Source: a virus | Taxonomy: Duplodnaviria > Heunggongvirae > Uroviricota > Caudoviricetes | IMG/VR virus record: IMGVR_UViG_3300020714_000006 | Length of the DNA: 64,000 nucleotides | Strand: one strand, 5' to 3' | Shown here: piece after piece, positions 2,856 through 55,332 of the stretch | How the letters are laid out: every line of letters begins with the position of its first letter | How positions within the stretch are numbered: the stretch's first letter is position 1 | Program-made: the position numbers and the translations under genes | Notes under the pieces: model-generated | Database searches by the model: none | The model's input: the letters and a program-made list of their open reading frames with translations, nothing else | What the model was told of the DNA's origin: nothing

Positions 2856-3092
2856 ATGGCAACACAGATAGGAAATGGAAACGTTCTTTTTGGTGATGGT
2901 AGTTCACAAACTTCGGCAACACCTACCGGAAATCCAGCAACTGGGCTTGGATTTGTCTATGAAAATTCACAATCTGTAACACAAAATTACACAATGACTA
3001 GTGGTAAATCAGGTATGTCAACTGGTCCAATTACTTTTGGACCGGGAATAACAGTTACGATTCCTAGTGGCTCAAGATGGATAGTATTATAA
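2856..3092 (+). CDS. Small Gly/Ser/Thr-rich protein, probably fibre-associated structural.
   Basis: Its composition resembles the downstream fibre proteins and it sits at the head of the fibre cluster. Confidence 0.4.
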   Translation: MATQIGNGNVLFGDGSSQTSATPTGNPATGLGFVYENSQSVTQNYTMTSGKSGMSTGPITFGPGITVTIPSGSRWIVL

Positions 3093-3102
3093 AGGATAAC
3101 AT

Positions 3103-4371
3103 ATGGCAATTATAAACGCAAGTAATACTAGTGGATTAGTTCAAACTGGTGATGCTAGTGGAGTACTTGCCCTTCAAACTGGCGGAACTACTGCGGTCAC
3201 TATAGATGCTTCAGGCAACGTGGGGATTGGGACGAGTAGTCCTACACAAAAGCTAGATGTCACAGGAAACATCAACACTTCAGGTTCATTAAATAGCATC
3301 AACACTTTTGGATTCAAAAACAGAATTATCAATGGTGGCATGGCTATAGACCAGCGTAATGCTGGGGCGCAGATAACAGCAGCTAACTTGGCTCCCAGCG
3401 CATACATGGTTGACCGTTGGTCATACTCTGCTTCACAGGCCGCAAAATTTACGGCGCAGCAAAATGCTGGGGCTGTAACAACTCCAGTTGGGTTCCCAAA
3501 TTATCTTGGCATGACAGTTGCTTCGGCATTTACCGTTGGCGCGGGTGATTGGTTTTGTATTGGTCAATCAGTAGAAGGGTTTAATTTTGCAGACTTGGCA
3601 TGGGGGACGGCAAGCGCAAAAACCGTAACTCTTTCATTTGTTGTTTATAGCTCTTTAACAGGTACATTCGGGGGCGCACTTCGCAACAACGCAACGAACC
3701 GTTCATATCCATTTACATATTCAATACCGACAGCAAACACTTGGACCACAATATCGGTGACCATTGCTGGCGATACAAGCGGAACTTGGGTTGGGGCGAC
3801 AAACGGACTTGGTGTTTCTCTCTTTTTCGGTCTTGGCGTAGGTACTACTTACAGTGGCACGGCAGGAGCTTGGGCGGCAACAAACTATATATCAGTTACT
3901 GGCGCAGTTTCCGTAGTCGGCACATCAGGTGCTACGTTCTACATCACAGGTGTTCAACTTGAGAAAGGATCAACCGCCACGAGCTTTGACTATAGGCCGT
4001 ATGGGACTGAGTTGGCGTTGTGTCAGAGATATTTTGAAAAGTCTTTTAATGTAAGTGTAGCCCCCGCCAACGGTACAACGGCTACGACTTTAATTGATAA
4101 TGCTGGTTGTTTTGCTAGCATGGCAATAAATGGCCAAGTTGATGGTGGGTTTATATCGTTTAAAGTATCAAAGAGGGCAGTCCCTACTTTAACTATTTAT
4201 GGAAATAATAGTGGGTATTGGAACTATTATAGTGGTGGAGCATCTTTATGGGGGGCAAATGCGTATTCCCCTGGTACTTTGGGTGAAAATGGACATGCTT
4301 TTTCGCAACAAGTTGTAAATGCCATAGCTATTGCTGTTAGAGGGCATTGGACTGCTTCAGCGGAGCTATAA
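3103..4371 (+). CDS. Tail fibre protein.
   Basis: AAGGA RBS. Carries the [21 protein letters not shown] module shared with neighbouring fibre genes and has Thr/Ser/Gly/Asn-rich beta-type composition. Confidence 0.6.
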   Translation: MAIINASNTSGLVQTGDASGVLALQTGGTTAVTIDASGNVGIGTSSPTQKLDVTGNINTSGSLNSINTFGFKNRIINGGMAIDQRNAGAQITAANLAPSAYMVDRWSYSASQAAKFTAQQNAGAVTTPVGFPNYLGMTVASAFTVGAGDWFCIGQSVEGFNFADLAWGTASAKTVTLSFVVYSSLTGTFGGALRNNATNRSYPFTYSIPTANTWTTISVTIAGDTSGTWVGATNGLGVSLFFGLGVGTTYSGTAGAWAATNYISVTGAVSVVGTSGATFYITGVQLEKGSTATSFDYRPYGTELALCQRYFEKSFNVSVAPANGTTATTLIDNAGCFASMAINGQVDGGFISFKVSKRAVPTLTIYGNNSGYWNYYSGGASLWGANAYSPGTLGENGHAFSQQVVNAIAIAVRGHWTASAEL

Positions 4372-4374
4372 AAA

Positions 4375-4743
4375 ATGTACAAACTAACTAACAACACATC
4401 AATAATCCGCATAGAAGATAACGCTTGTATCCCAAACGATCCAACCAACACCGATTACCAAGCCTACCTAGCGTGGCTAGAAGAGGGCAACACACCCGAA
4501 CCTGCTGATATACCACCTGTAGTTATACCCAACATCTCAATGCGACAAGCGAGATTAGCACTATTAGCTGATGGCTTACTTGATGATATTGAAGCTGCTA
4601 TGTCTACACCTGAGTATAAAATTTGGTGGGAATATTCAACGGTTGTTGAGCGTAATAATCCGCTTGTTGAGCAAGTGCTAGCAATCCTCGGCAAAAGTGA
4701 TGCTGAGATAGATCAAATGTTTATAGGAGCATCACAGTTATGA
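4375..4743 (+). CDS. Hypothetical protein in the fibre cluster.
   Basis: ORF with a GGAG RBS that overlaps the next gene by ATGA. Confidence 0.4.
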
Positions 4744-6353
4744 GTTCTATCGTAGTTGCTGGAGATACCAGCGGTTCAATCACATTACAAGCGCCTGCAG
4801 TAGCAGGGAGTACGGTTTTAACTTTGCCCACAACTTCAGCAACTTTAATCACGGACAGCTCGGGAATATTGAACATAGGCTCAGGTCAAGTCTATAAAGA
4901 TGCTTCAGGCAACGTGGGGATTGGGGTTATACCTAGCCCAGCCCAGGGAGGGTTATTACAATTAGGTAACACATCACAATATGGTTTTCAAGGGCCAATA
5001 GGTTATTTAAACGCAAATATATACTTTGGAACTGGGGCTTTTAGGTACTCAATAACAGGCGCAGCTTCGTCATATCAACAAAATTCAGGGTATCATATTT
5101 GGAGTTACGCGGCTTCAGGTACAGCCAATGCAGCGGTTTCTTTAACAGAAGCTATGCGCATCGACTCCTCCGGCAACGTGGGGATTGGGACGAGTAGTCC
5201 TAGCACTTACGCTGGAAAAGTAGTTTCTTACAATAATACAAATGGTTTAGCGTCATTTACAGCGTTGTCTGGTTTAGCGGCTACCAGTGTTATAGAAATA
5301 CAAGATGGTGCAGCAACTCCAAACAGATGGTGGTTATTATCTGGATTAGGAACAACAACAGATGGAACTTTTTCTATTTATGATAAAAGGCAAAGTGTTT
5401 CAAGATTAGCCATCGACTCCAGCGGCAACGTGGGGATTGGGACTACACCATCAGGAACATACAAACTTGAAGTAACAGGAGCTATAGGTAGTTCAACCAC
5501 CATAAATGCAACAACCGGATATAAGGTTGCAGGTGCAGCTACATCAGGACAATATCTACGAGGTAATGGCACTAACTTTGTATCTTCTGCCATACAAGCA
5601 GCTGATGTACCCACACTTAATCAAAATACTACAGGCAATGCCGCCAATGTGACGGGAACTGTTGCCGTAGGTAACGGTGGAACTGGGTCAACAACATTGC
5701 CCACTAATAACGTGCTACTAGGTAACGGCACATCAGCATTACAAGCGGTCGCCCCAAGTACATCGGGCAACGTATTAACATCAAATGGGACAACATGGCA
5801 ATCAATCGCGCCAAGTGGTGGCGGTGGCGGTTTCACCAGTATGGTCGTCTTCACAGCATCAGGTACATGGACTATTCCTGCTGGCATTACTAAGGCGAAA
5901 GTGACTATCCAAGGGGCTGGCGGTGGTGGTGGTGGTGGTTTTGGTTATGAAAACGGCGGCGGCGGCGGTGCGACTATAAAATATGTAACTGGATTGACTC
6001 CAGGTGGAACTGTTGTTTGTACGATTGGCGCTGGTGGCTCTGGTGCCGTCGCTTGTGGTGCGAATGGTGGTGCGGGCGGGACTACATCTTTTGGCGCTTA
6101 TTGCTCTGTAACTGGCGGAGGAGCAGGGCTTTCGTCAGGAGTCACAGGGTCAGGAGGCGTAGGAACAGGCGGGAATTGGAACCTTACTGGATCAGGTTTA
6201 TTTTCAGGTTATTATATCAACACACCGCCCTCTTTATCCTATATTTCTGATGGCACTGTGGCACGAGGTAGTGGTGGCGTTGCTGGTAATTATTGTGGAG
6301 TACCTACACCAGCTACTGCTGGAATGTCAGGTTTTATCATGATTGAATATTAA
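4740..6353 (+). CDS. Tail fibre protein with three SGNVGIGT modules and a Gly-rich C-terminal region.
   Basis: AGGAG RBS. The modules [27 protein letters not shown] and [14 protein letters not shown] are present, followed by poly-Gly stretches ([18 protein letters not shown]). Confidence 0.6.
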
Positions 6354-6366
6354 GGAGAAAATATAA

Positions 6367-6618
6367 ATGAAAGCATTAATAAGCCCTATTGAACCTGTAA
6401 ACAATTCTGACGGCACAACGGGCTATCGAGTTGCACAAGTTGAAGAAATAACTTTTGATGTAGCTGAACCATTATATTGGCTTGACTGCGATGCCAACGT
6501 GATAGCAGATATTTACTATTTTGATACTACATCTAATAATATATTAATTAAGCCTGTTATTGCTCATACTAATGTATCAAACACACAACCAATATCAACT
6601 GGAACACAAGCATTCTAA
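6367..6618 (+). CDS. Hypothetical protein.
   Basis: ORF with a GGAG RBS. Confidence 0.4.
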   Translation: MKALISPIEPVNNSDGTTGYRVAQVEEITFDVAEPLYWLDCDANVIADIYYFDTTSNNILIKPVIAHTNVSNTQPISTGTQAF

Positions 6619-6902
6619 TGGATATTTTGATACTGCCCCCAGCGCATAGCCTAACTTATGACGGTGCAACACTAAACATTTATCACGCCAACAAGGGTGA
6701 GGGATTGCCGCATCATGTTCACACGTTTAGTCACGCAACCATGTGTCATTCAGGGTCAATCATTGTCCGTAAGGAGGGCAAAGAAATGATAGTTACTAAA
6801 GAAACTCAACCTATAAATCTTACTGCTAATGAATGGCATGAAATTGAAGCATTAGAAGATAATACAGTGTTCTGTAATATGTTCTCTGAAGGAAAATATT
6901 AA
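6618..6902 (+). CDS. Small cupin-fold protein.
   Basis: LPHHVHTFSHATMCHSGSIIV resembles the cupin G(x)5HxH(x)n signature. Confidence 0.4.
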   Translation: MDILILPPAHSLTYDGATLNIYHANKGEGLPHHVHTFSHATMCHSGSIIVRKEGKEMIVTKETQPINLTANEWHEIEALEDNTVFCNMFSEGKY

Positions 6903-7082
6903 GGGCATGGTGATGAGTATGCTAGATAAACTTGAAGCTTCAGCTAGAGCCGCGTCATGTATTTCATATTTAACTAGCGTGGGGTTAGTGACTGGAAGTC
7001 TCTGGGAGTTTTTAAACACTAACGCCGCTGGCTTTGGTGCAGAAAAACTAAAAGAGTTACTTGCTCTTGTGAAGAGTAAATA

Positions 7083-7496
7083 ATGACTAACGAAAAAATG
7101 AAATTAGCTTTTGAGAGAATGGCTGGCATACCTGATGCTTGGACTAACCCAACACTTATGCAATCTCGTAATGGATTTTTTGCTACATCTGATAAAATAT
7201 TTAAAGAAAATATTCAAAATATTAACAATGCATTAGAAATTGTTTCTAACATAGGTGGTAAAACATTTGATTGGACCGATGACTATATTACCGAAAAAGG
7301 CGGTGTAGATGGTTATTTTGTTAATAAATCAGACTTTGGAGTAATAGCGCAAGATGTTCAATCAGTATTTCCACTAGCAGTAAGAACAAGAACTGATGGA
7401 ACATTAGCAGTAGATTATATAAAGCTTTGTGCATTAGCATTTGCTGCAATTAGAGAATTAAAAAATGAAGTTGATAATTTAAGGAAAACAATATGA
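7083..7496 (+). CDS. Short fibre or spike protein carrying an intramolecular chaperone (peptidase S74-like) domain.
   Basis: TSDKIFKENI matches the S-D-x-x-x-K-E-N-I autoproteolysis motif, and the C-terminal helical segment matches the C-terminus of 7680-8852. Confidence 0.55.
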   Translation: MTNEKMKLAFERMAGIPDAWTNPTLMQSRNGFFATSDKIFKENIQNINNALEIVSNIGGKTFDWTDDYITEKGGVDGYFVNKSDFGVIAQDVQSVFPLAVRTRTDGTLAVDYIKLCALAFAAIRELKNEVDNLRKTI

Positions 7497-7679
7497 TATT
7501 AAATGGATCTAATGGAATAAGTGGATTACCAGTCCCATTAGCACTTAGTCAAGGTGGAACAGGATGTTGACTATCACTGGTTGGAGCAAAACTGAAGCAA
7601 GATTAGTAAAAGCAATCCAAGAACTCAAAGCCATCATCGACACGCAAAACGCTCGTATAGAAGCACTGGAGGCTAAATA

Positions 7680-8852
7680 ATGGCTATCACGCTAAATGGA
7701 ACAACTGGAATCACAACTCCAGGTTTATTAAATACAGGTACAGAAACTATTGTTGACCTTACAACATCGGGCAATACAATACTAGGTGATGCTTCAACAG
7801 ATACTCTCAATGTAGGTAATGGTGGTATTGTCAAAGATGCGTCAGGCAACGTGGGGATTGGGACGAGTTCGCCAACAACAAAACTTACAGTCGCAGGTGC
7901 AATAACTATCACGGGTGGATTTGCGCTCAGAGGCTCATATAGTGCTGGTGCAATAAACTCAAACTTTGCGGCTGGAGATGGAGCTTTAACATCAAACACC
8001 ACAGGCTACTCCAACACAGCTAGTGGGTTGGGCGCACTCCAGTACAACACCACAGGCTACTTCAACACAGCTAGTGGGGTGGGCGCACTCAACAACAACA
8101 CCACAGGCATCTCCAACACAGCTAGTGGGTTGGGCGCACTCCAGTTCAACACCACGGGCAACTACAACACAGCTAGTGGGCAGAACGCACTCAACGCCAA
8201 CACCACAGGCTACTCCAACACAGCTAGTGGGTTGGGCACACTCCAGTACAACACCACAGGCTACAACAACACAGCTAGTGGGCAGAACGCACTCTATACC
8301 AACACCACAGGCAGCTACAACACAGCCAGTGGGTGGAATGCGCTCCTATCAAACACCACAGGCAACTACAACACAGCTAGTGGGGCGGGCGCACTCAACA
8401 GCAACACCACGGGGTCAGGGAACTCAGCGTTTAATCCAATAAATTCAGCAGGTACTTATGCACCTGTGTTTAACCCAACCGTAGAAAACAATCGGTTCTG
8501 TATGGGTTCAACTGGGGTGACTAATGCCTATATTCAAGTCGCTTGGACAGTCGTATCTGACGCACGTGATAAAACGAATTTTGCTCCAGTCCCCCACGGC
8601 TTAGAGTTTGTTAATCAACTTAAACCTACTGCCTATCAGTTTAAGGAAAATAGAGAAACTGATATACCAACTGGTATTGTTAGATATGGTTTTAAGGCAC
8701 AGGATATACTTGCTTTGGAAGGTGACACTCCTGTCATCATTGACAATGAGGATTTAGATAAACTTAGATTCAACTCTGATAGTCTTATCCCTGTATTGGT
8801 CAATGCAATCAAAGAACTCACTGCTCGTCTTGAGCTTTTGGAAGGAAAATAA
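7680..8852 (+). CDS. Tail fibre protein with 20-aa tandem repeats and a C-terminal intramolecular chaperone (S74) domain.
   Basis: GGAGG RBS. Has an N-terminal [11 protein letters not shown] module, about seven copies of NTTGYSNTASGLGALQY, and a C-terminal VSDARDKTNF...LEFVNQLKP..IPVLVNAIKEL sequence typical of the endosialidase/T5 pb1-type chaperone. Confidence 0.7.
   Translation: MAITLNGTTGITTPGLLNTGTETIVDLTTSGNTILGDASTDTLNVGNGGIVKDASGNVGIGTSSPTTKLTVAGAITITGGFALRGSYSAGAINSNFAAGDGALTSNTTGYSNTASGLGALQYNTTGYFNTASGVGALNNNTTGISNTASGLGALQFNTTGNYNTASGQNALNANTTGYSNTASGLGTLQYNTTGYNNTASGQNALYTNTTGSYNTASGWNALLSNTTGNYNTASGAGALNSNTTGSGNSAFNPINSAGTYAPVFNPTVENNRFCMGSTGVTNAYIQVAWTVVSDARDKTNFAPVPHGLEFVNQLKPTAYQFKENRETDIPTGIVRYGFKAQDILALEGDTPVIIDNEDLDKLRFNSDSLIPVLVNAIKELTARLELLEGK
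7996..8420 (+). repeat. In-frame tandem repeat with a 60-nt period, about seven copies, inside fibre gene 7680-8852.
   Basis: aacaccacaggctactccaacacagctagtgggttgggcgcactccagtacaac recurs with few substitutions. Confidence 0.9.
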
Positions 8853-9054
8853 AATGAATGAAATCACACCAGCACAACAATATACATCAACTATGGACTC
8901 AGTAAACCTAATTAATGGTGTTAAGCCTGCGATGATGACTGATGTGGAATGGGCAGATTGTATCAAAAGAAACAAAGAACACATTGAAATTATGTTAGCT
9001 AAAGATTTCTGGACAACTGAAGATTTAACTCCTTTCAAGGACGCTGTGAAATGA
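8803..9054 (+). CDS. Hypothetical protein.
   Basis: ORF immediately downstream of the fibre gene. Confidence 0.35.
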   Translation: MQSKNSLLVLSFWKENKMNEITPAQQYTSTMDSVNLINGVKPAMMTDVEWADCIKRNKEHIEIMLAKDFWTTEDLTPFKDAVK

Positions 9055-10209: not shown

Positions 10210-10242
10210 AATATACATAATGTTATAACTGTGAGTGAATTA

Positions 10243-12063
10243 ATGAAAAAGAAGAAAAATAAAATAGCAAAACCAAAACAAATTGATGCTAATCAATTAA
10301 GAAACACTGCTGTAGCAATGCATCAACAAAACAAATTAATAGAAGCAGAAAAATTATACAAACAGCTATTAACTATATTACCAAATGATACTACTTGTTG
10401 GACTAATTTAGGAACACTAGAATACCAACGTGGCAACTTTAAAAATGCAATTCAATTCATTGATAAATCATTAAAGATAGATCCAAACCAACCATTTGCA
10501 CATAACAATCGTGGCAACATTCTTAAAGATCTTAATCTAGTCAATGAAGCATTAGAAAGTTATAGCAATGGTATAGCAATCAATGATAAACTTCCAGAAC
10601 TCTTATACAACCGTGCTATTACATTACATGAATTAGGCAGAGTTGATGAAGCATTGGAATCATACACCAAAACTATAGAAATTGATAATAATAATATCAA
10701 AGCATATATAAATCTTGGTAACATTCTTCATGAATTAAACAGATCACACGAAGCTATAGCAAACTATAATAAAGTAAAAGAACTACAACCAGATTTTGCA
10801 TTAGCTTATGCAAATTGTGGCATTGTTTACCAACATATCAATGATGACGAAAAAGCATTAGAGAACTATACCAAAGCTACCGCAATTGAACCTATGTCAT
10901 CAGTATATTCTAATCGTGGTAATATCTATCAAAATCAACATAAACTATTAGAAGCAATAGAAGAATATGAAAAAGCAATCAAAATAGATCCAACATTTCA
11001 TACTGCACACGGTAACAAAGCTAATGCCCTATTATCAGTAAGAAGACTAGAAGAAGCTGAGAAATCATATAATACAGCATTAACTATTGAACCAGACTTT
11101 GCTGATGCACTTTGGAATAAATCTATACTTCTATTATTATATGGACAATATGAAGAAGGTTTCAAATTGTTTGAAAATAGATGGCGTTCTGCACTTAAGA
11201 ACTATTATCGTAGATATGATAAACCATTGTGGAACGGACAATCATTACAAGATAAAACTATTTACATATACCCAGAACAAGGATTTGGTGACTTTATACA
11301 ATTTTGTAGATACCTACCAATGTTTGATAACATGAATTGTAAAGTAATAGTAGAAGTTCCAATACTGCTTCGAGATCTAGTGAAAACAATAAAATGCAAT
11401 GCAACATTTCTAGATTCTGAAACATTTGACAAAACTATACCATTTGATTATCATTGTCCTATAATGAGTCTACCAGGTGGATTTAAAACCACATTAGATA
11501 CTATACCAGCTGATATGCCATACTTATATCCAGTTGAATCTAAACAAAAGTACTGGGCAGATAAATTAGGACCAAAAACAAAAACAAGAGTGGGATTAGT
11601 ATGGTCTGGTGGATTTAGACCAGAACAACCAGAAACCTGGGCAGCTAACAGTAGAAGAAATATTAAATTAGCAAATCTAGAATGCTTTAAAGATATAGAT
11701 GTAGAATTCTATAGTATTCAAAAGGGCGCAACACCTGAAAAAGAATTAACAGATTTGGTTGCACAGAATTGGGATGGTCCAGTTATTACTAGTTATACCG
11801 ATGAATTAATAGACTTTGCTGATACCGCTGCTTTCATAAGCAACTTGGATTTAGTAATATCAGTTGACACATCTACTGCCCATGTAGCAGCTGCTATCGG
11901 TAAACCAGTATGGATATTTAATAGATTTGATGCTTGTTGGCGATGGTTACTTAACAGAACTGATAGTCCATGGTATCCAACTGTTACCTTGTTCAATCAA
12001 AAAGTTACCAATGAATGGGATGAAGTTATACAAGAAATACACGAGAAACTTAAAACATTATGA
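10243..12063 (+). CDS. TPR-repeat protein with a C-terminal glycosyltransferase family 9 (heptosyltransferase)-like domain.
   Basis: About eight TPR units (A..Y..A repeats) at the N-terminus. The C-terminal half has PEQGFGDFIQFCRY and VDTSTAHVAAAIGKPVWIF, which resemble GT9 motifs. The tracked ORF starts at GTG 10231; the ATG at 10243 (MKKKKNK) is more likely. Confidence 0.55.
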   Translation: MKKKKNKIAKPKQIDANQLRNTAVAMHQQNKLIEAEKLYKQLLTILPNDTTCWTNLGTLEYQRGNFKNAIQFIDKSLKIDPNQPFAHNNRGNILKDLNLVNEALESYSNGIAINDKLPELLYNRAITLHELGRVDEALESYTKTIEIDNNNIKAYINLGNILHELNRSHEAIANYNKVKELQPDFALAYANCGIVYQHINDDEKALENYTKATAIEPMSSVYSNRGNIYQNQHKLLEAIEEYEKAIKIDPTFHTAHGNKANALLSVRRLEEAEKSYNTALTIEPDFADALWNKSILLLLYGQYEEGFKLFENRWRSALKNYYRRYDKPLWNGQSLQDKTIYIYPEQGFGDFIQFCRYLPMFDNMNCKVIVEVPILLRDLVKTIKCNATFLDSETFDKTIPFDYHCPIMSLPGGFKTTLDTIPADMPYLYPVESKQKYWADKLGPKTKTRVGLVWSGGFRPEQPETWAANSRRNIKLANLECFKDIDVEFYSIQKGATPEKELTDLVAQNWDGPVITSYTDELIDFADTAAFISNLDLVISVDTSTAHVAAAIGKPVWIFNRFDACWRWLLNRTDSPWYPTVTLFNQKVTNEWDEVIQEIHEKLKTL

Positions 12064-47887: not shown

Positions 47888-49096
47888 TTATCTCGAATAC
47901 CTTTTCATTACGATAGTCAACGTTTCAACAAGATCGGAAATCATACCATCGGTGTGGTTCGGAGTAGGGGCGAACCTCAATCGTTCAGTACCAACTTCAA
48001 CTGTAGGAAAATTTATGGCTTGAACGTAAATGTTATAATCATTTAACAAAATATCACTTATCTCTTTGGCTTTCTTTGCATCACCAATTATTACTGGAAC
48101 AATGTGGGTTTTTCCATCCATCACTGGTATATTGTATTCTCTCATAAGAAATCTTAATTTATTCGCACGTTCTTTAATTTTCTCTCTTATTTCATTATGA
48201 TCTTTTAAATATTTCACAGCAGCCAATGCACCAGCACATATTACTGGACTTAGTGATGTTGAGAATATAAACCCAGCCGCAATACTTCTGATTGCATCTA
48301 CTACGATGGCATCAGCAGCAATATATCCACCCTGAACTCCATATGCCTTACCTAATGTTCCATTAACAATATCAACTCGATCTTGTAATCCAAGTTCTTC
48401 TAATAATCCAGCACCAGTTGGACCTATTACGCCTATGGAGTGGACTTCATCAAGATATGTTATGGCATTATACATATCAGCTAAATCACAAATTTCTTTA
48501 ATATGGCTAATATCACCATCCATACTGTATACACTTTCAAACACTATACAAGGAGTATTCCCATTTTCAACTGCTTTCTTTAAACAACTTTCTAAATCTT
48601 CTAAATCATTATGTCTGAATATTTGTTTTGGTGCTCTACTATAACTCATACCAACAATTAGACTATTATGATTTTTGCTATCACTAATAAATTCAATATT
48701 GTTAATGATCTTAGATAATGAAATCAATGATGACTCATTTGCCACATATGCTGAAGTAAATAACAATGCTTTTTCTTTCTTATGTAATGATGCCAATTCA
48801 TGTTCAAGTGCAACGTGGTAATGGCTAGTACCAGATATATTTCTAGTACCACCAGACCCAGCACCAGTCATATCTAATGCTGTTCTCATTGCATCTAATA
48901 CTACTTTAGACTGACCCATGCCCAAATAATCATTTGAACACCAATTGACAATGTTCTTAATAGCATATGGGCCATACCATATTGCATTAGGAAATTTACC
49001 TTGTTCTCGCAGTATGTCATTGAAAACACGATACTTTCCATTATCTTTTAAATTTTGTATTAAATTGTTGAAAGGAGTTTTATTAATCATTTCCAT
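47888..49096 (-). CDS. hemA: 5-aminolevulinate synthase (ALAS, alpha-oxoamine synthase family).
   Basis: KYRVFNDILREQGKFPNA, VNWCSNDYLGMGQ, GAGSGGTRNISGT, FESVYSMDGD, the PLP lysine in NGTLGKAYG, and FIFSTSL are collinear with bacterial and mitochondrial ALAS. Confidence 0.92.
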   Translation of the reverse strand: MEMINKTPFNNLIQNLKDNGKYRVFNDILREQGKFPNAIWYGPYAIKNIVNWCSNDYLGMGQSKVVLDAMRTALDMTGAGSGGTRNISGTSHYHVALEHELASLHKKEKALLFTSAYVANESSLISLSKIINNIEFISDSKNHNSLIVGMSYSRAPKQIFRHNDLEDLESCLKKAVENGNTPCIVFESVYSMDGDISHIKEICDLADMYNAITYLDEVHSIGVIGPTGAGLLEELGLQDRVDIVNGTLGKAYGVQGGYIAADAIVVDAIRSIAAGFIFSTSLSPVICAGALAAVKYLKDHNEIREKIKERANKLRFLMREYNIPVMDGKTHIVPVIIGDAKKAKEISDILLNDYNIYVQAINFPTVEVGTERLRFAPTPNHTDGMISDLVETLTIVMKRYSR

Positions 49097-49721: not shown

Positions 49722-52406
49722 ATGTCAATAAGAAAAATTAGAGCAGGACGTATTCCAACTATTTCAGCAAATGAATATATTGGTGAACGTGGAACTATAT
49801 TTTGGAATGAAGATACTGGTGAACTACGCTTAAGTGATGGCATTACACCAGGTGGAAATACAGTTATTGTTGGATTTGCGTCCGAGCAAATAGCAGGAAG
49901 TGTAAAACCAGGTGGTGGATTTACTGTTTCAGCCGATGCAACACTTAGTTTGAATGTTGGATCAATGTTTGAATTAGATATAAACAATGTATTTCAGCTT
50001 AAACCTGCCACTTCTTCACAATTGGGTGGCATTAAAGCAGGTCCTGGTATCGAAATTGCATCCGATGGCACGTTACTTATTGATAGCGCTGGTCTAAGTT
50101 TTAGTTTTGGTGATTTTTATGCATCAGGAAATAATTTTTCAACTGTTAATTTAAATGAAGATGTGAACATCGTATCAAATGGTACTGGAACTGTTAACAT
50201 AGTTGGTAATTTTTCAGTTTATAAAACAGACGATACGGTAGCAGGTGCTGAAGCGGTAAGTCCGATTTTTCATATTAGTGGAGATGGACAAATACAAATG
50301 TTAGTTCCATCTGCAGACCAAAATACTGGTGCATTAGAAATAGTTGGTTCATTAGATGGTGTCTATCAAATTCCAGTTAATACAGGTGTAATGCTACATA
50401 TAACAGGTATACCACCCCAAGGAGGAATAGCTACACCGAGTCGTTTATATAACGATGCCCAAGGTTCATATGCATTATATGCTGGAAGAAGATATAATGG
50501 AACAGCGGTGTCACCATTGCCTGTATTAGCAAATGAACCACTTGTAAGATATGCTGGGGTTGGCTATGCTAGTGGTGGTTGGCCAGGATTTGGGCCAGCT
50601 AGAATGGAAATTAATGCTGGTGAAAATTTAACTAATACTAATCAAGGTGGATATTTAACATTCTATGCTACACCAAATGGTCAAATTGCAAGTACAAATA
50701 ATACTAAATTAGTTGCTAGAATGGATACTACCAGCGGTATTGTATCATCTAAATTAAATGTTGTAAATTATACCGTTATCAATGGGCATTTAAATGCAGT
50801 TCCTCTGGTTATTAACGTATCTGGTGCAAGTGGAACAGCAGGAACTGCTACATTAACTTTTTCAACACAACCATTCCCACCATTCTTGGTAGGTGGAAAA
50901 ATTACTGTTTCTAGTATGAATCCAGCAGGATACAATGCGAATTCGGTGACAGTTACTGCATGTACAACGACATCAGTAAGCTATAGTAATGCCACTACCG
51001 CAACATTTGTTGCTGGGGGAATTATAACTGGATTGGATACTATTGTTCTTAATTCTGGATTGGTTGGTGCAATTGATAATATTAACATCGGAACATCAAC
51101 TCCTGGCACTGGTGCTTTTTCTGCATTATCTGCATCAAATGTCTCATCATCTACTGGAGTAGTTTCACTAGGAACATTTGCTGGCTCATTCACCGATGGC
51201 GTAATCATCGATTATGCAAATAGCATAGGTCGTATTAGTGTAGGAGACAATGATGGAATTACATTTTATAAAAGTGCAAATACAACTAGAGCAGCATTAC
51301 TAGCAATAAATTCAAATGGAAATTTAACATTATCTGGAAATACATTAACTATATCAAATGCAACATGCTATATAGTTAATACAACTGCAACAACTGTTAA
51401 TTTTGCTGGTGCAGCTACCACATTGAACATTGGAAATTCTAGTGGCACTACTACAATATCTGGTAATTTATCTGTTTCTAATACCATATCTGGTAGTGTT
51501 AGTGGCAACGCTGGAACTGCGACTAAACTGGCAACAACAACTAACATAAATGGAGTTAGTTTTGATGGATCGTTGTCTTCATACACATTAACAGCTGCAG
51601 CAGGAACCTTAACAGGAACTACCTTAAATTCAACCATAGTAAATAGTAGTTTAACAAGTGTTGGAGCATTAACTAGTGGTAGTATAGGTTCTGGATTTAC
51701 TGCAATACCTAACTCAGCGTTAGCACATAATAGTACAACTATAGGTACTACTGCGATTAGTTTAGGTAGTTCAAGTACAACATTAAGTGGTATGTCTAGT
51801 ATAACATTTGCTGGTGCAACTAGCGGAACTTCATTATTACAATCTCAAGCAATCGCTGCAACAACAACATTTACTTTACCATCAACTACCGGTACATTAA
51901 TAGGTACAGGCGATACTGGCACAGTATCTAATTCTATGCTATCACATAGCACAATTTCTGGAGTTGCTTTAGGTAATAACTTAAATTCTTTAACAACAGG
52001 ATTTGGATTACAATTATCTTCAGGAACAACATATAATGGTAGTTCATCTCTTACATTAAATAAATATTACACAATAACTGGACCAGTATCTATAGTATCT
52101 AATGCTTATGCGTTAGACTTAGGAACAGCAAATGGTGTTGTTATTTTAGATAACGCTGGTGCTGCATTTACTATTACTATTTCTAATCCGCTAGCAGGTA
52201 GAAATATTCGTGTATTAGTTACATCATTAAAAGGAAATCCAGTAATTACTATTAGTGGATTATCTGCGTCAAATAGTAGTAATGGAACACTTACATTCAC
52301 TTCAAATTATGGTCCAGGTACTACTACATTTGCATTAATTGAATTCATTTGTACCTCTAGTGCTCTGTCTGGGGTTTATATGAATATATCTGGTGGGGCT
52401 AAATAA
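49722..52406 (+). CDS. Large tail fibre or structural protein (894 aa).
   Basis: Very Thr/Ser/Gly/Asn-rich beta composition; the tracked ORFs on the complementary strand inside it are not called as genes. Confidence 0.6.
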   Translation: MSIRKIRAGRIPTISANEYIGERGTIFWNEDTGELRLSDGITPGGNTVIVGFASEQIAGSVKPGGGFTVSADATLSLNVGSMFELDINNVFQLKPATSSQLGGIKAGPGIEIASDGTLLIDSAGLSFSFGDFYASGNNFSTVNLNEDVNIVSNGTGTVNIVGNFSVYKTDDTVAGAEAVSPIFHISGDGQIQMLVPSADQNTGALEIVGSLDGVYQIPVNTGVMLHITGIPPQGGIATPSRLYNDAQGSYALYAGRRYNGTAVSPLPVLANEPLVRYAGVGYASGGWPGFGPARMEINAGENLTNTNQGGYLTFYATPNGQIASTNNTKLVARMDTTSGIVSSKLNVVNYTVINGHLNAVPLVINVSGASGTAGTATLTFSTQPFPPFLVGGKITVSSMNPAGYNANSVTVTACTTTSVSYSNATTATFVAGGIITGLDTIVLNSGLVGAIDNINIGTSTPGTGAFSALSASNVSSSTGVVSLGTFAGSFTDGVIIDYANSIGRISVGDNDGITFYKSANTTRAALLAINSNGNLTLSGNTLTISNATCYIVNTTATTVNFAGAATTLNIGNSSGTTTISGNLSVSNTISGSVSGNAGTATKLATTTNINGVSFDGSLSSYTLTAAAGTLTGTTLNSTIVNSSLTSVGALTSGSIGSGFTAIPNSALAHNSTTIGTTAISLGSSSTTLSGMSSITFAGATSGTSLLQSQAIAATTTFTLPSTTGTLIGTGDTGTVSNSMLSHSTISGVALGNNLNSLTTGFGLQLSSGTTYNGSSSLTLNKYYTITGPVSIVSNAYALDLGTANGVVILDNAGAAFTITISNPLAGRNIRVLVTSLKGNPVITISGLSASNSSNGTLTFTSNYGPGTTTFALIEFICTSSALSGVYMNISGGAK

Positions 52407-52813
52407 TGAAAATAAGAGAAATAATTAACGAAGGGTTAGCGCAAGATAAAGCAAATTTAATAATTAAAAAATTTATACAGTTTGCACAAGACCATTTAGA
52501 GTTAGCTGAATTACCTTCTATTTCTCTAAACACTAATTCACACATAAGTATTGAACATAAATCATTTGGTGGATATAGTCCATCTGATAAAAGTATTAAT
52601 GTTATGATGTCTAATAGACATATACAAGACGTGCTTCGTACAATTGCACATGAACTTACGCATTATAAACAAGATCTAAATGGTGAATTAAATGCGGATA
52701 GTGGCAAAGATGGTAGCCCACAAGAAAATTCTGCAAATTCTACTGCAGCTATAATCCTTAGAAAGTGGGGTAAATTACACCCAGAATTATTTGGATATGA
52801 GGCTATAGAATGA
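52406..52813 (+). CDS. HExxH-motif protein, possibly a Zn-metallopeptidase or fibre assembly factor.
   Basis: HELTHY motif; ATGA overlap with the fibre gene. Confidence 0.4.
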   Translation: MKIREIINEGLAQDKANLIIKKFIQFAQDHLELAELPSISLNTNSHISIEHKSFGGYSPSDKSINVMMSNRHIQDVLRTIAHELTHYKQDLNGELNADSGKDGSPQENSANSTAAIILRKWGKLHPELFGYEAIE

Positions 52814-52840
52814 AAAAAGGCCCGTTAAGGGCCTTTTACT
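52812..52840. terminator. Bidirectional intrinsic terminator.
   Basis: An A6 run, then ggccc gttaa gggcc, then a T4 run. Confidence 0.7.
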
Positions 52841-53088
52841 TATTTCTTACCTACAAATTCATTCATGCTATTTGCAATATCAAGAACTTTTTCAATGGTT
52901 GGAAAATCTGGTCTGTCTGGTGGAATAGTAAATCTATCTAGTTGTTCTAGCATCAAATATAGTTCATACTCTCTAAATCGTGCATTAAAATCACTTATTG
53001 CTAAATCTTTAGACATTGCTAGTATATCAGTTCTGATATCATAACCCGTTTTACCACTTGTTTTTACTTCCCTGCTTTGTAATGACAT
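52840..53088 (-). CDS. Hypothetical protein.
   Basis: ORF on the minus strand. Confidence 0.4.
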   Translation of the reverse strand: MSLQSREVKTSGKTGYDIRTDILAMSKDLAISDFNARFREYELYLMLEQLDRFTIPPDRPDFPTIEKVLDIANSMNEFVGKK

Positions 53089-53177
53089 AATATTCTCCTT
53101 GTGTTCTTTAATTAAATAGTAAAAATGATATTATAGTATATTTTGTTATGGTTGTCAAGTCTCTATAAATAATTTAA

Positions 53178-54458
53178 ATGAAAACAATAATTAAATCAAG
53201 TCAACATAATATCAAATTTGCTAATATTGGTAAACAACTGATATTAAAAGAATTCATTACCGAATATGATCGGGTATTGTGGTGGTTTGTTGATTATTTA
53301 TGGAATAATAAAATCATTTGGGGCAATAATAGAACTTTAGATATCAAAAATAATAAATTAGATGTTCCAAGTTTTATTTCTACCACTGATATCGATTTAA
53401 TTACCGATCTTTCAGCAAGGGCAATTAAATTAGCGTCAGGGGAAGCTCTGGCAATTATCAAAAGTAGAACAGAAAAACGAAGAAAACAATTATTTGTTCT
53501 CGCTAAACAAATGCGTGCTGGTGATAAATCTATTTCAAAATTACAATCAAAAATTGATAGTAATCCATTATCAAAACCAACACGAAATAGCAATAATTTA
53601 GTAGCAAATTTGGATAGTAATTGCTGTAAATATATCCCAGATACCACTGGTATCTTTGATGGATGGCTGAAATTATCATCACTTGGTAAAAGGTATGGAC
53701 ATATTTATATACCAATTAAAACAACAAGGCATTCAAATCAATTAGCCAAGAAAGGTTATAAAATGATTACTAGTTGGCAGATTTCTACTAACACTTTATA
53801 TTCCAGATGGGAAACTACACGAGAGAAATCAACTGGTAGTAAAATCATTGGTGCAGACCAAGGATATGTTACTTGCTTATCATTAAGTGATGGACAAACA
53901 ACTAGTGCTGATATGCATGGTCATGATTTACATAGTATAATCAATAAGTTATCATATAAAAAGAAAGGCAGTAATGGCTTTAAACGAGTACAGGAACACC
54001 GAACAAATTATATCAATTGGTCCATAAATCAATTGGATTTATCAAATATAAAAGAACTCAGATTAGAAAAGTTATTTCAAATGAGAAAAGGTTCTAATAT
54101 GGGAAGAAATTTAAGTCATTGGACTTATACACAAATCAATGCACAGATAATGAAGCGATGTGAAGAACTGGGTGTCCCAGTAATCGAGCAATCGGCTAGT
54201 TATAGAAGTCAAAGATGTAGTGATTGTGGATGGACCCAAAAATCAAATAGGAAGGGAAAGGAGTTTATATGCAATCAATGTGGCGTATGCCATGATGCCG
54301 ATATAAATGGCGCCCTAAATCATGAAGCCGACTTATATCGGCTCCCTGTTGGTTTTTGGCAGAACAAATTTAATATCAAGGGGTTCTATTGGACTTCTAG
54401 AATGGTATTAGATTTATCTGGTGCGGAGCTTATAGTCCCGCATGTACAAAATGTATGA
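53178..54458 (+). CDS. tnpB: TnpB (IS200/IS605 OrfB-family RuvC-like nuclease), stand-alone.
   Basis: RuvC-I motif IGADQG, a Zn finger (CSDCGW...CNQCGVC) and RuvC-III motif DADINGALN. No tnpA is adjacent. Confidence 0.85.
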   Translation: MKTIIKSSQHNIKFANIGKQLILKEFITEYDRVLWWFVDYLWNNKIIWGNNRTLDIKNNKLDVPSFISTTDIDLITDLSARAIKLASGEALAIIKSRTEKRRKQLFVLAKQMRAGDKSISKLQSKIDSNPLSKPTRNSNNLVANLDSNCCKYIPDTTGIFDGWLKLSSLGKRYGHIYIPIKTTRHSNQLAKKGYKMITSWQISTNTLYSRWETTREKSTGSKIIGADQGYVTCLSLSDGQTTSADMHGHDLHSIINKLSYKKKGSNGFKRVQEHRTNYINWSINQLDLSNIKELRLEKLFQMRKGSNMGRNLSHWTYTQINAQIMKRCEELGVPVIEQSASYRSQRCSDCGWTQKSNRKGKEFICNQCGVCHDADINGALNHEADLYRLPVGFWQNKFNIKGFYWTSRMVLDLSGAELIVPHVQNV

Positions 54459-54559
54459 TTTATACAAACTGTATGTCTGTGAATATATATTATACTAAAT
54501 TATATAAAAATAGTCAAGATAATTTAATAATAAAATAAATACAGTATAAGGAACATCGG

Positions 54560-54814
54560 ATGAAAAAATCAACTCGCTCCATACTACAAGAATTAAGTGA
54601 AATTGGATTAAGTAGAGATACTAATCTAATAATAGAAAGTCGTGCTTCTAATATAATACAAAGTGCGATAAATCTAATTGAACTAATTAAAGAAAACTAC
54701 GATCCAGAAATCTCTGATGATTTAGAACGTAGATTCATCAATAGTATTAAATCAGGTGATACAACTAAATTCAAAAGGGGCCTTAAAAAACTACAAGAAA
54801 GTAAGAAAATTTAA
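54560..54814 (+). CDS. Hypothetical protein.
   Basis: ORF with a GGAAC RBS. Confidence 0.4.
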   Translation: MKKSTRSILQELSEIGLSRDTNLIIESRASNIIQSAINLIELIKENYDPEISDDLERRFINSIKSGDTTKFKRGLKKLQESKKI

Positions 54815-54879
54815 CTTTTTTGATAAATAATATTATAAACCTACAGAGTGTGGGTTGAAAAGCATATAGGAGAAAGATT

Positions 54880-55332
54880 ATGCCATCATTATTAGGAACA
54901 ACAGGCATCGACGGAACAGTGAACACTGGCGTTGCTGCTAATTATTTAAAAACAAAACCAACTACACAACTTGGTACTCGTGCATTAGTATTTTTAAACA
55001 TCACTTTGAGTGGTTCAGGTGCACCAGACTTAACTAAACAATCTGGTTCATCAGGTACTTATACTGACCCACAAAGTTATTTAACTACTCTAGTGCGTAC
55101 AGTTCAGGGTTATGCTGAAATTTATGCAATCGGTACACCAACTGCAACTGATATTACTATTGCTATCGCTAGCAACACTGCTAATGATTCAGCTGATGGT
55201 AGTAACGTTTCTGATAGTTCTTGGGGTGATATCGAAGTAGCAGTATGGACTGCACTAGGTTCTTGGAATTCACCAATAGGAACTAACGTTGTAGCTTCAG
55301 CTAAAAGCTTATCAGGTGCTACATTGGTTTAA
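54880..55332 (+). CDS. Candidate abundant virion protein.
   Basis: AGGAGAAAG RBS, Gly/Thr/Ser/Ala-rich, and followed by a strong terminator. Confidence 0.4.
   Translation: MPSLLGTTGIDGTVNTGVAANYLKTKPTTQLGTRALVFLNITLSGSGAPDLTKQSGSSGTYTDPQSYLTTLVRTVQGYAEIYAIGTPTATDITIAIASNTANDSADGSNVSDSSWGDIEVAVWTALGSWNSPIGTNVVASAKSLSGATLV

What the first reader, a model, noticed from the sequence alone, without database searches (positions are those of the whole stretch)
53178..54560. Stand-alone TnpB (RuvC-like, guide-RNA-type nuclease) between structural genes, without TnpA
The gene has complete RuvC-I/II/III motifs and a Zn finger, so the protein is probably active. TnpB proteins use a right-end-derived omega RNA, which would be expected to overlap the 3' end of the gene and the region downstream (about 54380-54560). 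Phage-resident TnpB elements may be domesticated, serving for example as RNA-guided nucleases or regulators.
Basis: partly seen in the sequence, partly recalled or inferred. Interest (0 to 1): 0.55.

Follow-up and report, generated by a model that had tools for sequence, protein, structure and literature searches.

The report
Transposase-less IS607 TnpB element in phage
This is a 1.37-kb IS607-type insertion sequence in a large phage genome that has lost its transposase gene but keeps an intact RNA-guided nuclease (TnpB) and its guide-RNA scaffold; it is a known kind of selfish element, with an unusual target motif and a built-in promoter that replaces the one it displaced.

Summary
ORF 53178-54458 (+) encodes a 426-aa TnpB with an intact RuvC triad (D227, E297, D375) and a CxxC...CxxC zinc finger. 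No transposase gene lies anywhere in the 64-kb window.

The element belongs to IS607, not IS605. The three closest full-length relatives (85, 80 and 79% identity) carry an IS607 serine-recombinase tnpA directly upstream of tnpB. In the window, about 585 bp holding tnpA are missing, while the left end is kept.

Two related phage contigs have the same gene order and an empty site. They define a precise 1368-bp insertion, 53105-54472, with no inverted repeats and no target duplication.

A structured guide-RNA (omega RNA) scaffold overlaps the tnpB 3' end, about 54236-54472. Covariation supports it strongly: one hairpin is 96.6% paired across 76 sequences, with double changes at all 7 pairs. It ends in AACUGU, and the predicted guide starts at 54473.

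Across the clade the left flank reads GT-NT and the right end reads CT-NT, not the canonical GG.

The left end carries a perfect outward-facing TTGACA-17-TATAAT promoter. It now serves the neighbouring gene, whose own promoter was displaced.

The most likely role is an immobilised selfish element acting as an RNA-guided homing nuclease. Domestication as a regulator is not supported.

The parts
53105..54472 (+). IS607-family insertion sequence lacking tnpA (1368 bp). The boundary is ambiguous by the shared TGT (53102-53104 and 54470-54472).
   Evidence: blastn of the window against empty-site contig L064 stops at 53104 and resumes at 54470, at adjacent L064 positions 3986/3988. Independent insertions of related elements break at the same motifs.
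53101..53104 (+). Left-flank motif GTGT: inferred target site of the lost TnpA and predicted TAM (target-adjacent motif) of TnpB. The last two bases are the putative crossover dinucleotide.
   Evidence: The left flank ends in GTGT in nine junctions: window, L001, L250, L072, L074, L013, L067, L012/L014 and L030. It ends in ATGT in three (L033, L035, L037). Subclades whose right end is ACTCT or ACTAT have flanks ending GTCT or GTAT.
53105..53177 (+). Left end (LE) remnant, fused almost directly to the tnpB start after loss of tnpA.
   Evidence: Window 53100-53159 is 78% identical to L001 5345-5404, which lies upstream of tnpA. Window 53166 onward aligns to L001 5989 onward. The 585-bp tnpA interval is absent.
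53130..53158 (-). Perfect sigma-70-type promoter (TTGACA-17-TATAAT) inside the LE, facing outward toward the 82-aa gene.
   Evidence: 12 of 12 matches. The layout matches the phage's other 15 perfect promoters. The homologous LE sequences in L001 and L250 match only 9 of 12.
53178..54458 (+). tnpB ORF, 426 aa. RuvC-I D227 is at 53856-53858, RuvC-II E297 at 54066-54068, RuvC-III D375 at 54300-54302. The zinc-finger cysteines lie at 54216-54281.
   Evidence: dN/dS is about 0.15 against L001 and L247.
54236..54472 (+). Predicted omega-RNA (guide RNA) scaffold. Helices: 54236-54251/54345-54359, 54263-54277/54293-54308, 54326-54331/54338-54343, and 54360-54378/54403-54420. The 5' limit is uncertain.
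   Evidence: Fold z-score is -4.86 in the window and -3.5 in L001, with the same architecture. Covariation on a 20-sequence alignment gives a score of 0.206, against 0.119 shuffled and 0.079 or less slid. Synonymous divergence drops in the last ~76 codons.
54421..54443 (+). Best-supported omega-RNA hairpin (GUGCGGAG-CUUAUA-GUCCCGCAU), inside the codons for G-A-E-L-I-V-P-H.
   Evidence: 96.6% of cells are paired in 76 distinct sequences. All 7 pairs show changes on both sides.
54452..54466 (+). Terminal hairpin of the scaffold. It spans the stop codon (54456-54458).
   Evidence: Almost all 76 relatives have a hairpin of unrelated sequence whose 3' arm ends about 6 nt before the right end.
54467..54472 (+). 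Right-end terminal motif AACTGT, the last scaffold bases and the right boundary of the element.
   Evidence: AACT[G/A/C]T is conserved in nearly all relatives. Independent copies diverge immediately after it.
54473..54492 (+). Predicted guide segment (AUGUCUGUGAAUAUAUAUUA), transcribed from native phage flank. Its length of 16-20 nt is assumed from other TnpBs.
   Evidence: Position follows from the right boundary. The same sequence starts the right half of the empty sites in L065 (11 of the first 12 nt) and L064 (first 9 nt). There is no other close match in the window.
54489..54517 (-). Displaced native promoter (TTGACT-17-TATAAT) of the 82-aa gene. It is now separated from that gene by the element and points into the right end, antisense to tnpB.
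   Evidence: Promoters sit at the equivalent place, about 30 nt from the gene, in empty sites L064 and L065.
52840..53088 (-). Flanking 82-aa gene. The element inserted into its 5' leader. Not part of the element.

Best explanation
Positions 53105-54472 are a non-autonomous IS607-family insertion sequence sitting in the 5' leader of a small early gene of a large AT-rich phage.

Shown:
- The element was inserted precisely at a GTGT|A site. Inferred from this: the agent was its own serine recombinase.
- The tnpA gene is now absent, while both ends, tnpB and the 3' RNA scaffold are kept.

Inferred by analogy with characterised IS605 and IS607 TnpBs:
- The tnpB transcript is processed into an omega RNA. 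Its scaffold is about 54236-54472 and its guide is the adjacent 16-20 nt of phage flank (54473 onward).
- The TnpB-RNA complex recognises a GTGT-like TAM followed by ATGTCTGTGAAT..., which is the junction that exists only in genomes of this phage lacking the element.
- In a mixed infection it would cut such genomes. Recombinational repair from the element-bearing genome would then copy the element and co-convert flanking markers, or the competitor would simply be destroyed. This is the role of an RNA-guided homing endonuclease.
- The copy itself is protected because the right end presents CTGT instead of GTGT next to the target.
- The outward consensus promoter in the left end drives the 82-aa gene whose own promoter was displaced. 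This would make the insertion tolerable.
For: - Family and intactness.
- IS607 identity: the relatives' upstream gene scores 173-181 bits on NF033518 'IS607 family transposase' (cutoff 110). tnpA lies directly upstream in P0001, P0002 and P0003. About half of the viral-contig relatives have it.
- tnpA deletion with the left end kept.
- Precise insertion and empty sites. No TIR and no TSD.
- Omega RNA.
- Boundary and flank rules.
- Purifying selection, dN/dS 0.15.
- The exact protein occurs at the same locus in at least 23 contigs, some 0.2-1 Mb.
- tnpA has been lost independently in another relative, L249.
- Promoters.
- Mechanistic precedents: IS607 TnpB cleaves the donor joint and uses a G-versus-C difference to spare the right end (PMC10690162). 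TnpB processes its own mRNA (PMC10278001). 'Non-restorative homing' among co-infecting phages has been proposed (PMC13565253).
Against: - No expression, RNA or cleavage data exist.
- tnpB has no recognisable Shine-Dalgarno sequence and no sigma-70-type promoter on its own strand.
- The displaced native promoter fires antisense into the element and could suppress it.
- No near-identical element-free allele with an exact guide match was found in IMG/VR. The empty sites found are in diverged phages that match the guide over only 9-11 nt.
- The dN/dS values mostly reflect history before tnpA was lost. Identical copies in many contigs may mean a recent sweep rather than selection for function.
- The GTGT TAM is inferred from flanks, not measured.
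Confidence: 0.6

Rival explanations
1. Inert passenger. This is a recently immobilised insertion that has not yet decayed. TnpB and the RNA are intact only because too little time has passed, and neither does anything for the phage or for the element.
For: - tnpA is gone, so transposition is impossible in cis.
- There is no own-strand promoter or ribosome-binding site.
- The copies in at least 23 contigs are identical, which is compatible with a recent event.
- No exact target allele was found.
Against: - Many tnpA-less copies with full-length tnpB exist across the clade: 45 of 76 distinct loci have no adjacent tnpA, though some contigs are cut.
- At least one other loss is independent (L249).
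- One jumbo-phage contig holds four diverged (84-90%) tnpA-less copies, all with open tnpB. This argues that tnpB persists after tnpA loss.
- The left-end promoter has been perfected relative to relatives, implying time and selection since insertion.
Confidence: 0.25
2. Still mobile in trans. The element keeps both ends and could be excised and inserted by an IS607 TnpA encoded elsewhere, in the more than 200-kb phage genome, the host, or a co-infecting phage. TnpB would then play its usual restorative role. This is compatible with the best explanation rather than exclusive of it.
For: - Both ends are intact and homologous to those of tnpA-bearing relatives.
- Other contigs carry several copies, with and without tnpA.
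- The window covers only 64 kb of a genome that appears in 0.2-1 Mb contigs.
Against: - No tnpA is present in the 64-kb window.
- Only one copy of the element or its RNA motif is in the window.
- The same locus was seen in all contigs read.
Confidence: 0.2
3. Domesticated RNA-guided regulator or defence nuclease, like TldR or a mini-CRISPR effector, serving the phage.
For: - Phage-encoded TnpB derivatives that act as transcription factors exist (PMC10705468).
- The predicted guide target overlaps the -10 and start region of the displaced promoter at 54489-54517. Binding without cutting could in principle silence antisense transcription.
Against: - The RuvC triad is intact. TldRs are nuclease-dead.
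- The guide is the unaltered native flank, as in any transposon copy.
- There is no other target in the window, and no associated array or partner gene.
- The element has canonical transposon ends shared with autonomous relatives.
Confidence: 0.04
4. An IS200/IS605-type TnpB whose right end carries the subterminal DNA hairpin used by a Y1 (HUH) transposase.
For: NCBIfam IS200_TnpB gives a weak hit (33 bits, cutoff 425).
Against: - The closest relatives carry a serine recombinase that passes the IS607 transposase model.
- No Y1 transposase is seen next to any relative examined.
- The flank and end motifs fit a two-base crossover rather than IS605 cleavage sites.
Confidence: 0.01

Closest known systems
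IS607-family TnpB with omega RNA, as characterised in the Clostridium botulinum IStron/IS607 (PMC10690162)
   Same: - tnpA (serine recombinase) lies upstream of tnpB in autonomous relatives.
- There are no inverted repeats and no target duplication.
- The RNA scaffold is at the 3' end and runs to the right boundary.
- The guide is the adjacent flank.
- The TAM equals the transposase's target motif.
- The right end differs from the TAM by a G-to-C change that would spare the occupied site (TGGG versus TCGG there; GTGT versus CTGT here).
   Different: - The core and terminal dinucleotide is GT (CT or AT in sister subclades), not GG.
- There is no group I intron.
- tnpA has been deleted.
- The RNA scaffold lies mostly inside the ORF, including a 45-aa C-terminal tail.
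- The host replicon is a lytic-type large phage.
- All functional properties here are inferred.
ISFba1 and other IS607 TnpBs guided by RAGATH-18-derived RNAs (PMC11061315; PDB 8iaz)
   Same: - Overall fold: Foldseek E 3e-12, TM about 0.5.
- RuvC D/E/D triad and zinc finger.
- IS607 association.
   Different: - No RAGATH-18 or any other Rfam hit, even at E up to 10, in the window. Relatives searched at gathering threshold also give none.
- Those RNAs lie downstream of the ORF, whereas this scaffold overlaps it.
- Their TAMs are AGGAG or GAGGG, against the GTGT inferred here.
- Only about 16% sequence identity.
Free-standing homing endonucleases of T-even phages (SegF, SegB, Mob; reviewed in PMC13565253)
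   Same: A selfish nuclease gene wedged between conserved phage genes. It is expected to cut the allele of a co-infecting relative that lacks it and to spread by recombinational repair with co-conversion of flanks.
   Different: Specificity here would come from an RNA guide plus a short TAM rather than from protein-DNA recognition. The gene arrived as a transposon with defined ends.
TldR, phage-encoded nuclease-dead TnpB-derived repressors (PMC10705468)
   Same: A TnpB-family protein encoded in a phage without a transposase, with an RNA derived from its 3' region.
   Different: TldRs have lost RuvC catalysis and carry re-targeted guides against host promoters. This protein keeps D227, E297 and D375, and its guide is the native flank.
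Phage-borne IS607-type element reported in Microcystis and its cyanophage (Kuno et al. 2010; known to me only from the reference list of PMC6188088, not read)
   Same: An IS607-family element associated with a large tailed phage.
   Different: Not compared at sequence level here. The relationship is unknown.

Membership tests
TnpB (OMEGA RNA-guided nuclease) | RuvC-like catalytic triad D...E...D | tested here: met
   D227 is nearly invariant. E297 and D375 are invariant in 38 relatives. E297 and D375 align to the catalytic positions in the Cas12f and TnpB PDB entries.
TnpB (OMEGA RNA-guided nuclease) | Zinc-ribbon/TNB domain with CxxC...CxxC between RuvC-II and RuvC-III | tested here: met
   PF07282 scores 54.6 bits (cutoff 26.3). 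C347, C350, C365 and C368 are invariant.
TnpB (OMEGA RNA-guided nuclease) | Whole-protein match to curated TnpB models | tested here: inconclusive
   NF040570 guided_TnpB gives E 2e-18 but 66.8 bits, below the cutoff of 100. The full-length fold match to Cas12f, ISFba1 TnpB and Fanzor2 compensates.
TnpB (OMEGA RNA-guided nuclease) | Conserved structured RNA overlapping the 3' end of the gene and ending at the transposon right boundary | tested here: met
   Covariation. Terminal hairpin plus AACUNU. Boundary.
TnpB (OMEGA RNA-guided nuclease) | RNA-guided, TAM-dependent DNA cleavage | not testable with these tools
   Needs biochemistry or interference assays.
IS607 family | Serine-recombinase TnpA encoded upstream of tnpB | tested here: not met
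   Absent from the window. It is present and passes NF033518 in the closest relatives. The window copy is therefore a tnpA-deleted derivative, not an autonomous member.
IS607 family | No terminal inverted repeats and no target-site duplication | tested here: met
   The alignment score of the left end against the reverse-complemented right end is within shuffles. The flanks share only the TGT crossover overlap.
IS607 family | Termini and target contain GG (the canonical crossover dinucleotide) | tested here: not met
   The left flank ends GTGT and the right end ends CTGT. Sister subclades use CT or AT. The canonical GG rule is stated in PMC6188088, PMC10690162 and PMC13565253.
IS200/IS605 family | Y1 (HUH) TnpA and subterminal DNA hairpins at the ends | tested here: not met
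   No Y1 transposase lies next to any relative examined. The partner is a serine recombinase.
TldR (nuclease-dead TnpB-derived repressor) | Loss of RuvC catalytic residues and a guide re-targeted away from the flank | tested here: not met
   The triad is intact. The guide region equals the native flank seen in the empty sites.
RAGATH-18 reRNA class of IS607 guide RNAs | Match to the Rfam RAGATH-18 covariance model downstream of tnpB | tested here: not met
   No Rfam hit at gathering threshold in the window or in 7 relatives. No relevant hit at E up to 10 in 53000-54900.
Fanzor2 (eukaryotic/giant-virus IS607 TnpB homologues) | Catalytic Glu relocated to about six residues before the zinc finger (per PMC13565253) | tested here: not met
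   E297 lies 50 residues upstream of C347, the prokaryotic arrangement. The genomic context is a tailed phage.

The most novel reading that the evidence does not exclude
A large, phage-associated clade of IS607 elements has switched from the canonical GG crossover to GT/CT/AT cores (target GT-NT, right end CT-NT). It repeatedly sheds its transposase while keeping TnpB and the omega RNA. The surviving TnpB-RNA modules would then act as RNA-guided homing endonucleases, a gene drive and competitor-killing device between co-infecting large phages. Left ends that evolve outward consensus promoters would let the elements sit inside promoter-to-gene leaders at no cost to the phage.
Probability: 0.35. 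Interest if true: 0.6.

Novelty: new variant of a known kind. Interest (0 to 1): 0.45.

Why it matters
TnpB genes in phages are known but usually only catalogued. Here the element's ends, empty site, predicted TAM, guide and RNA scaffold are all defined to the base. That makes a direct test possible of whether transposase-less TnpB modules behave as RNA-guided homing endonucleases in phage populations.

The GT-NT/CT-NT rule widens the known target range of IS607 serine transposases and their TnpBs, which matters for anyone looking for compact genome editors with new TAMs.

The outward promoter shows one way a transposon can be tolerated in a densely packed phage genome.

Tried and rejected
- **Near-identity DNA search against GenBank phages:** no match. 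Protein-level hits there are all below 33% identity.
- **Rfam:** no match for any family at gathering threshold or at E up to 10. The RNA had to be defined by comparative analysis.
- **IMG/VR scan with a 14-mer of the empty site:** 120 random hits, none related to this phage. This was a wasted scan.
- **IMG/VR scan with an 18-mer (TAM plus guide):** one unrelated contig. No exact element-free allele was found.
- **tnpB driven by a T4-type late promoter:** TATAAATA sits at 53164-53171, and ATAAATA lies upstream of neighbouring genes and of tnpA in L001. However, TATAAATA is not enriched in the window (11 found, 17 expected). I dropped the idea as unsupported.
- **Long-range helix between the DADING codons (54297-54300) and the right-end CUGU:** RNAalifold proposed it. 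Its central pairs do not covary with the G/A/C variation of the right end, so I rejected it.
- **Additional copies or solo RNA scaffolds in the window:** none found.
- **The 32-nt direct repeat 53128-53159 / 54487-54518:** I first considered a target duplication or target mimicry. It turned out to be two copies of the phage's promoter consensus on the minus strand.
Full report
**1. The observation**

The ORF at 53178-54458 (+) encodes 426 aa.
- It hits the Cas12f1-like TNB domain above Pfam's cutoff.
- It hits NCBIfam's guided_TnpB model at E 2e-18, but below the curated cutoff.
- It hits PHROG 'transposase' families.

A homology search returned 714 relatives. Nearly all are about 420-430 aa and come from metagenomes, at 40-85% identity over the full length.

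In an alignment of 38 of them, D227, E297, D375 and the four zinc-finger cysteines are invariant or nearly so. An unexpected 45-residue tail after RuvC-III (GF[FY]W...G.E..VP) is conserved too. PDB sequence matches align the RuvC-II and RuvC-III motifs with those of Cas12f and ISDra2 TnpB.

An AlphaFold2 model built from the alignment is confident (mean pLDDT 89.6). Over its whole length it matches AsCas12f, the IS607 ISFba1 TnpB (8iaz) and mimivirus Fanzor2.

**2. Which transposon family**

The decisive clue came from genomic context.
- The relative at 80% identity (P0002, locus L001) has a 194-aa gene directly upstream that overlaps the tnpB start. It hits the Resolvase domain.
- That protein, and its homologue in L013, pass NCBIfam's 'IS607 family transposase' equivalog at 173 and 181 bits (cutoff 110).
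- The 85% relative (L247) and the 79% relative (L250) also carry this tnpA.
- About half of 57 IMG/VR loci with a relative have it in the same position.
- tblastn with this TnpA finds nothing in the 64-kb window.

blastn of the window against L001 gives two collinear pieces:
- 53166-54473 matches tnpB and what follows it, at 81% identity.
- 53100-53159 matches the 60 bp upstream of tnpA in L001, at 78% identity.

The roughly 585 bp holding tnpA are therefore cleanly missing in the window, and the left end now abuts tnpB. Another relative (L249, 71%) has lost tnpA with a different junction, so this loss is recurrent.

**3. Ends and empty site**

Two IMG/VR contigs (L064, L065) carry homologues of the genes on both sides in the same order. 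These are the 135-aa metalloprotease-like ORF, the 82-aa minus-strand ORF, the 84-aa virion protein and the genes that follow. They have only 106-109 nt between the 82-aa and 84-aa genes and no tnpB.

blastn against L064 stops at window 53104 and resumes at 54470, at adjacent L064 positions (3986/3988). This is a precise insertion with a 3-nt TGT overlap.

The empty site reads ...TTCTCC-TGTGT-ATGTCTGT.... The window reads ...TTCTCCTTGTGT|TCTTTAATT...[element]...ACAAACTGT|ATGTCTGTGAAT....

There are no terminal inverted repeats and no target duplication.

Independent insertions of related elements break at the same motifs.
- Nearly every relative has AACT[G/A/C]T 4-55 nt after its stop codon, and copies diverge immediately after it.
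- On the left, flanks end in GTGT (nine junctions) or ATGT (three) for elements whose right end is ...CTGT.
- Flanks end in GTCT or GCCT for ...CTCT elements, and in GTAT for ...CTAT elements.

This fits a serine-recombinase crossover at a two-base core. Here the core is GT, CT or AT rather than the GG reported as invariant for IS607 (PMC6188088, PMC10690162, PMC13565253).

By the established rule that the TnpB TAM equals the TnpA target motif, the predicted TAM is GTGT, or RTGT. The right end presents CTGT next to the guide-matching flank. This parallels TGGG versus TCGG in the C. botulinum element, where that G/C difference protects the occupied site (PMC10690162). This step is inference.

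**4. The RNA**

Folding and alignment:
- Positions 54230-54473 fold far better than shuffles (z -4.86). L001 folds into the same architecture (z -3.5).
- A MAFFT alignment of 76 distinct 3' regions was made without reference to structure.

Covariation:
- The hairpin at 54421-54443 is paired in 96.6% of cells, and all seven pairs show changes on both sides.
- The whole-structure covariation score is 0.374, against 0.18 for shuffles and at most 0.114 when partners are slid.
- On the 20 closest sequences, further helices are supported: 54263-54277/54293-54308 (UUUAUAU/AUAUAAA changing to UUCGUAU/AUACGAA), 54326-54343, and 54360-54378/54403-54420.

Terminal hairpin:
- Almost every member has a terminal hairpin of unrelated sequence whose 3' arm ends six bases before the boundary.
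- An A-rich linker precedes it and AACUNU follows it.
- In the window this hairpin is 54452-54466 and spans the stop codon.

Synonymous sites:
- Synonymous divergence falls from 0.48-0.56 in codons 1-350 to 0.18-0.30 in the last ~76 codons, as expected for an overlapping RNA constraint.
- Overall dN/dS is about 0.15.

No Rfam family matches, RAGATH-18 included.

The scaffold is thus about 54236-54472, with an uncertain 5' limit, and the guide about 54473-54492. Its distal part is native phage DNA.

**5. Promoters**

The window contains 16 perfect TTGACA-17-TATAAT promoters. Counting sites with at least 11 of 12 matches gives 30, against 4.6 in shuffles. They have a common layout upstream of genes.

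One of them lies inside the left end on the minus strand (53158 to 53130). It sits about 40 nt upstream of the start codon of the 82-aa gene.

That gene's original promoter (54517 to 54489, 11 of 12) is now on the far side of the element. In the empty sites of L064 and L065, a promoter sits about 30 nt from the gene.

The homologous left-end sequences in L001 and L250 match the consensus at only 9 of 12 positions. I infer that the element landed between promoter and ribosome-binding site, and that its left end was selected to a perfect promoter that restores expression.

The displaced promoter now points antisense into the RNA scaffold and tnpB. Its effect is unknown.

I found no sigma-70-type promoter or Shine-Dalgarno sequence for tnpB itself. 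A T4-late-type TATAAATA box at 53164-53171 is not statistically supported.

**6. Mechanism and rivals**

The best-supported reading is an immobilised selfish element whose TnpB-omega RNA would cut element-free alleles of the same phage during co-infection. It would then spread by recombinational repair, like a homing endonuclease with an RNA specificity module.

Shown:
- family membership;
- intact motifs;
- the deletion of tnpA;
- the exact insertion;
- the conserved RNA;
- the flank rules.

Inferred:
- expression and processing;
- the TAM;
- cleavage and homing.

Points against activity:
- tnpB has no obvious expression signals.
- A promoter fires antisense into the element.
- No exact target allele was found in IMG/VR.

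Other relevant observations:
- The identical protein occurs at this locus in at least 23 contigs, some 0.2-1 Mb. The insertion is therefore fixed in a widely sampled large phage.
- Domestication as a regulator is unlikely. The nuclease is intact, the guide is the native flank, and no other target exists in the window.
- Mobilisation in trans by a tnpA elsewhere cannot be excluded from a 64-kb window.

**7. Novelty**

TnpB in phages, TnpA-less TnpB, and IS607 omega RNAs are all known (PMC12607003, PMC10690162, PMC11061315, PMC13565253).

New here:
- a phage-associated IS607 clade with non-GG cores and a GT-NT/CT-NT end logic;
- an RNA scaffold largely embedded in the coding sequence, including a conserved C-terminal tail;
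- a left end that supplies a consensus promoter to the interrupted gene.

I rate it a new variant of a known kind, of moderate interest.

Noticed in passing
window 3001-9000: A block with 42-46% G+C in a 30-33% background. It holds ORFs 3103-4371, 4375-4743, 4740-6353 (glycine-rich domain) and 7680-8852 (Peptidase_S74 tail-fibre chaperone domain). It looks like a horizontally acquired tail-fibre module.
   Followed up: no
window, e.g. 10181, 13215, 13336, 15239, 16626, 17852, 18424, 20439, 22113, 24864, 27850, 29367, 30441 (+); 42014, 37782 (-): There are sixteen perfect TTGACA-17-TATAAT promoters in 64 kb, usually followed by A (TATAATA). Most lie in the 10-31 kb and 37-42 kb regions. The phage appears to rely heavily on host sigma-70 for an early gene block.
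   Followed up: partly
window 52406-52813 versus L064 4289-4693: The 135-aa HExxH (metalloprotease-like) protein is 99% identical to its homologue in contig L064. The adjacent genes are only 45-83% identical. This is a sharp mosaic boundary right next to the insertion site. It could be recent exchange or co-conversion.
   Followed up: no
L030, L033, L035, L037 (IMGVR_UViG_3300029288_000059, 290 kb): One jumbo-phage-sized contig carries four diverged (84-90% identical) tnpA-less copies of a related element at different sites. All have an open tnpB and the same ends (left flank ..TGT | T[TC]A[AT]TTAAC ... GTGACTGT).
   Followed up: partly
L047, L106, L111, L109, L114, L116 (right end AACTCT); L022, L045, L052 (right end GACTAT): Sister subclades use a different last-but-one base at the right end, and the same base in the left flank (GTCT, GTAT). 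This suggests the crossover dinucleotide has switched among GT, CT and AT within one clade.
   Followed up: partly
L249 2060-2290: This is an independent loss of tnpA. Here the sequence that precedes tnpA in L001 and L250 (GATAAATAAAGT-ATG) is fused directly to the tnpB start. The junction differs from the one in the window.
   Followed up: partly
window 53118-53141 and 54441-54463: The left and right ends share a loose direct motif: GTA-AAAATG-ATAT in the left end and GTACAAAATG-TAT in the right end. These could be sub-terminal binding sites for the lost TnpA. Significance was not assessed.
   Followed up: no
window 52815-52837: A 9-bp GC-rich palindrome (AAAAGGCCC-GTTAA-GGGCCTTTT) is flanked by T-runs on both strands. 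It is a bidirectional terminator between the convergent 135-aa and 82-aa genes.
   Followed up: no
window 47888-49096 (-): A class I/II aminotransferase gene (PF00155, E 4e-65) lies among phage structural genes. It is a possible auxiliary metabolic or surface-modification gene.
   Followed up: no
window 10231-12063 (+): A 610-aa protein has many TPR repeats and a weak C-terminal glycosyltransferase family 9 match.
   Followed up: no
L007 6501-7865: Three tRNA genes lie just downstream of the related IS607 element in this viral contig.
   Followed up: no
L003 5650-5945: Four to five tandem leftward TTGACA promoters fill the 350 nt between a minus-strand gene and the tnpA-less tnpB of this 327-kb viral contig. 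The last one lies about 60 nt from the tnpB start, an arrangement like that in the window.
   Followed up: no
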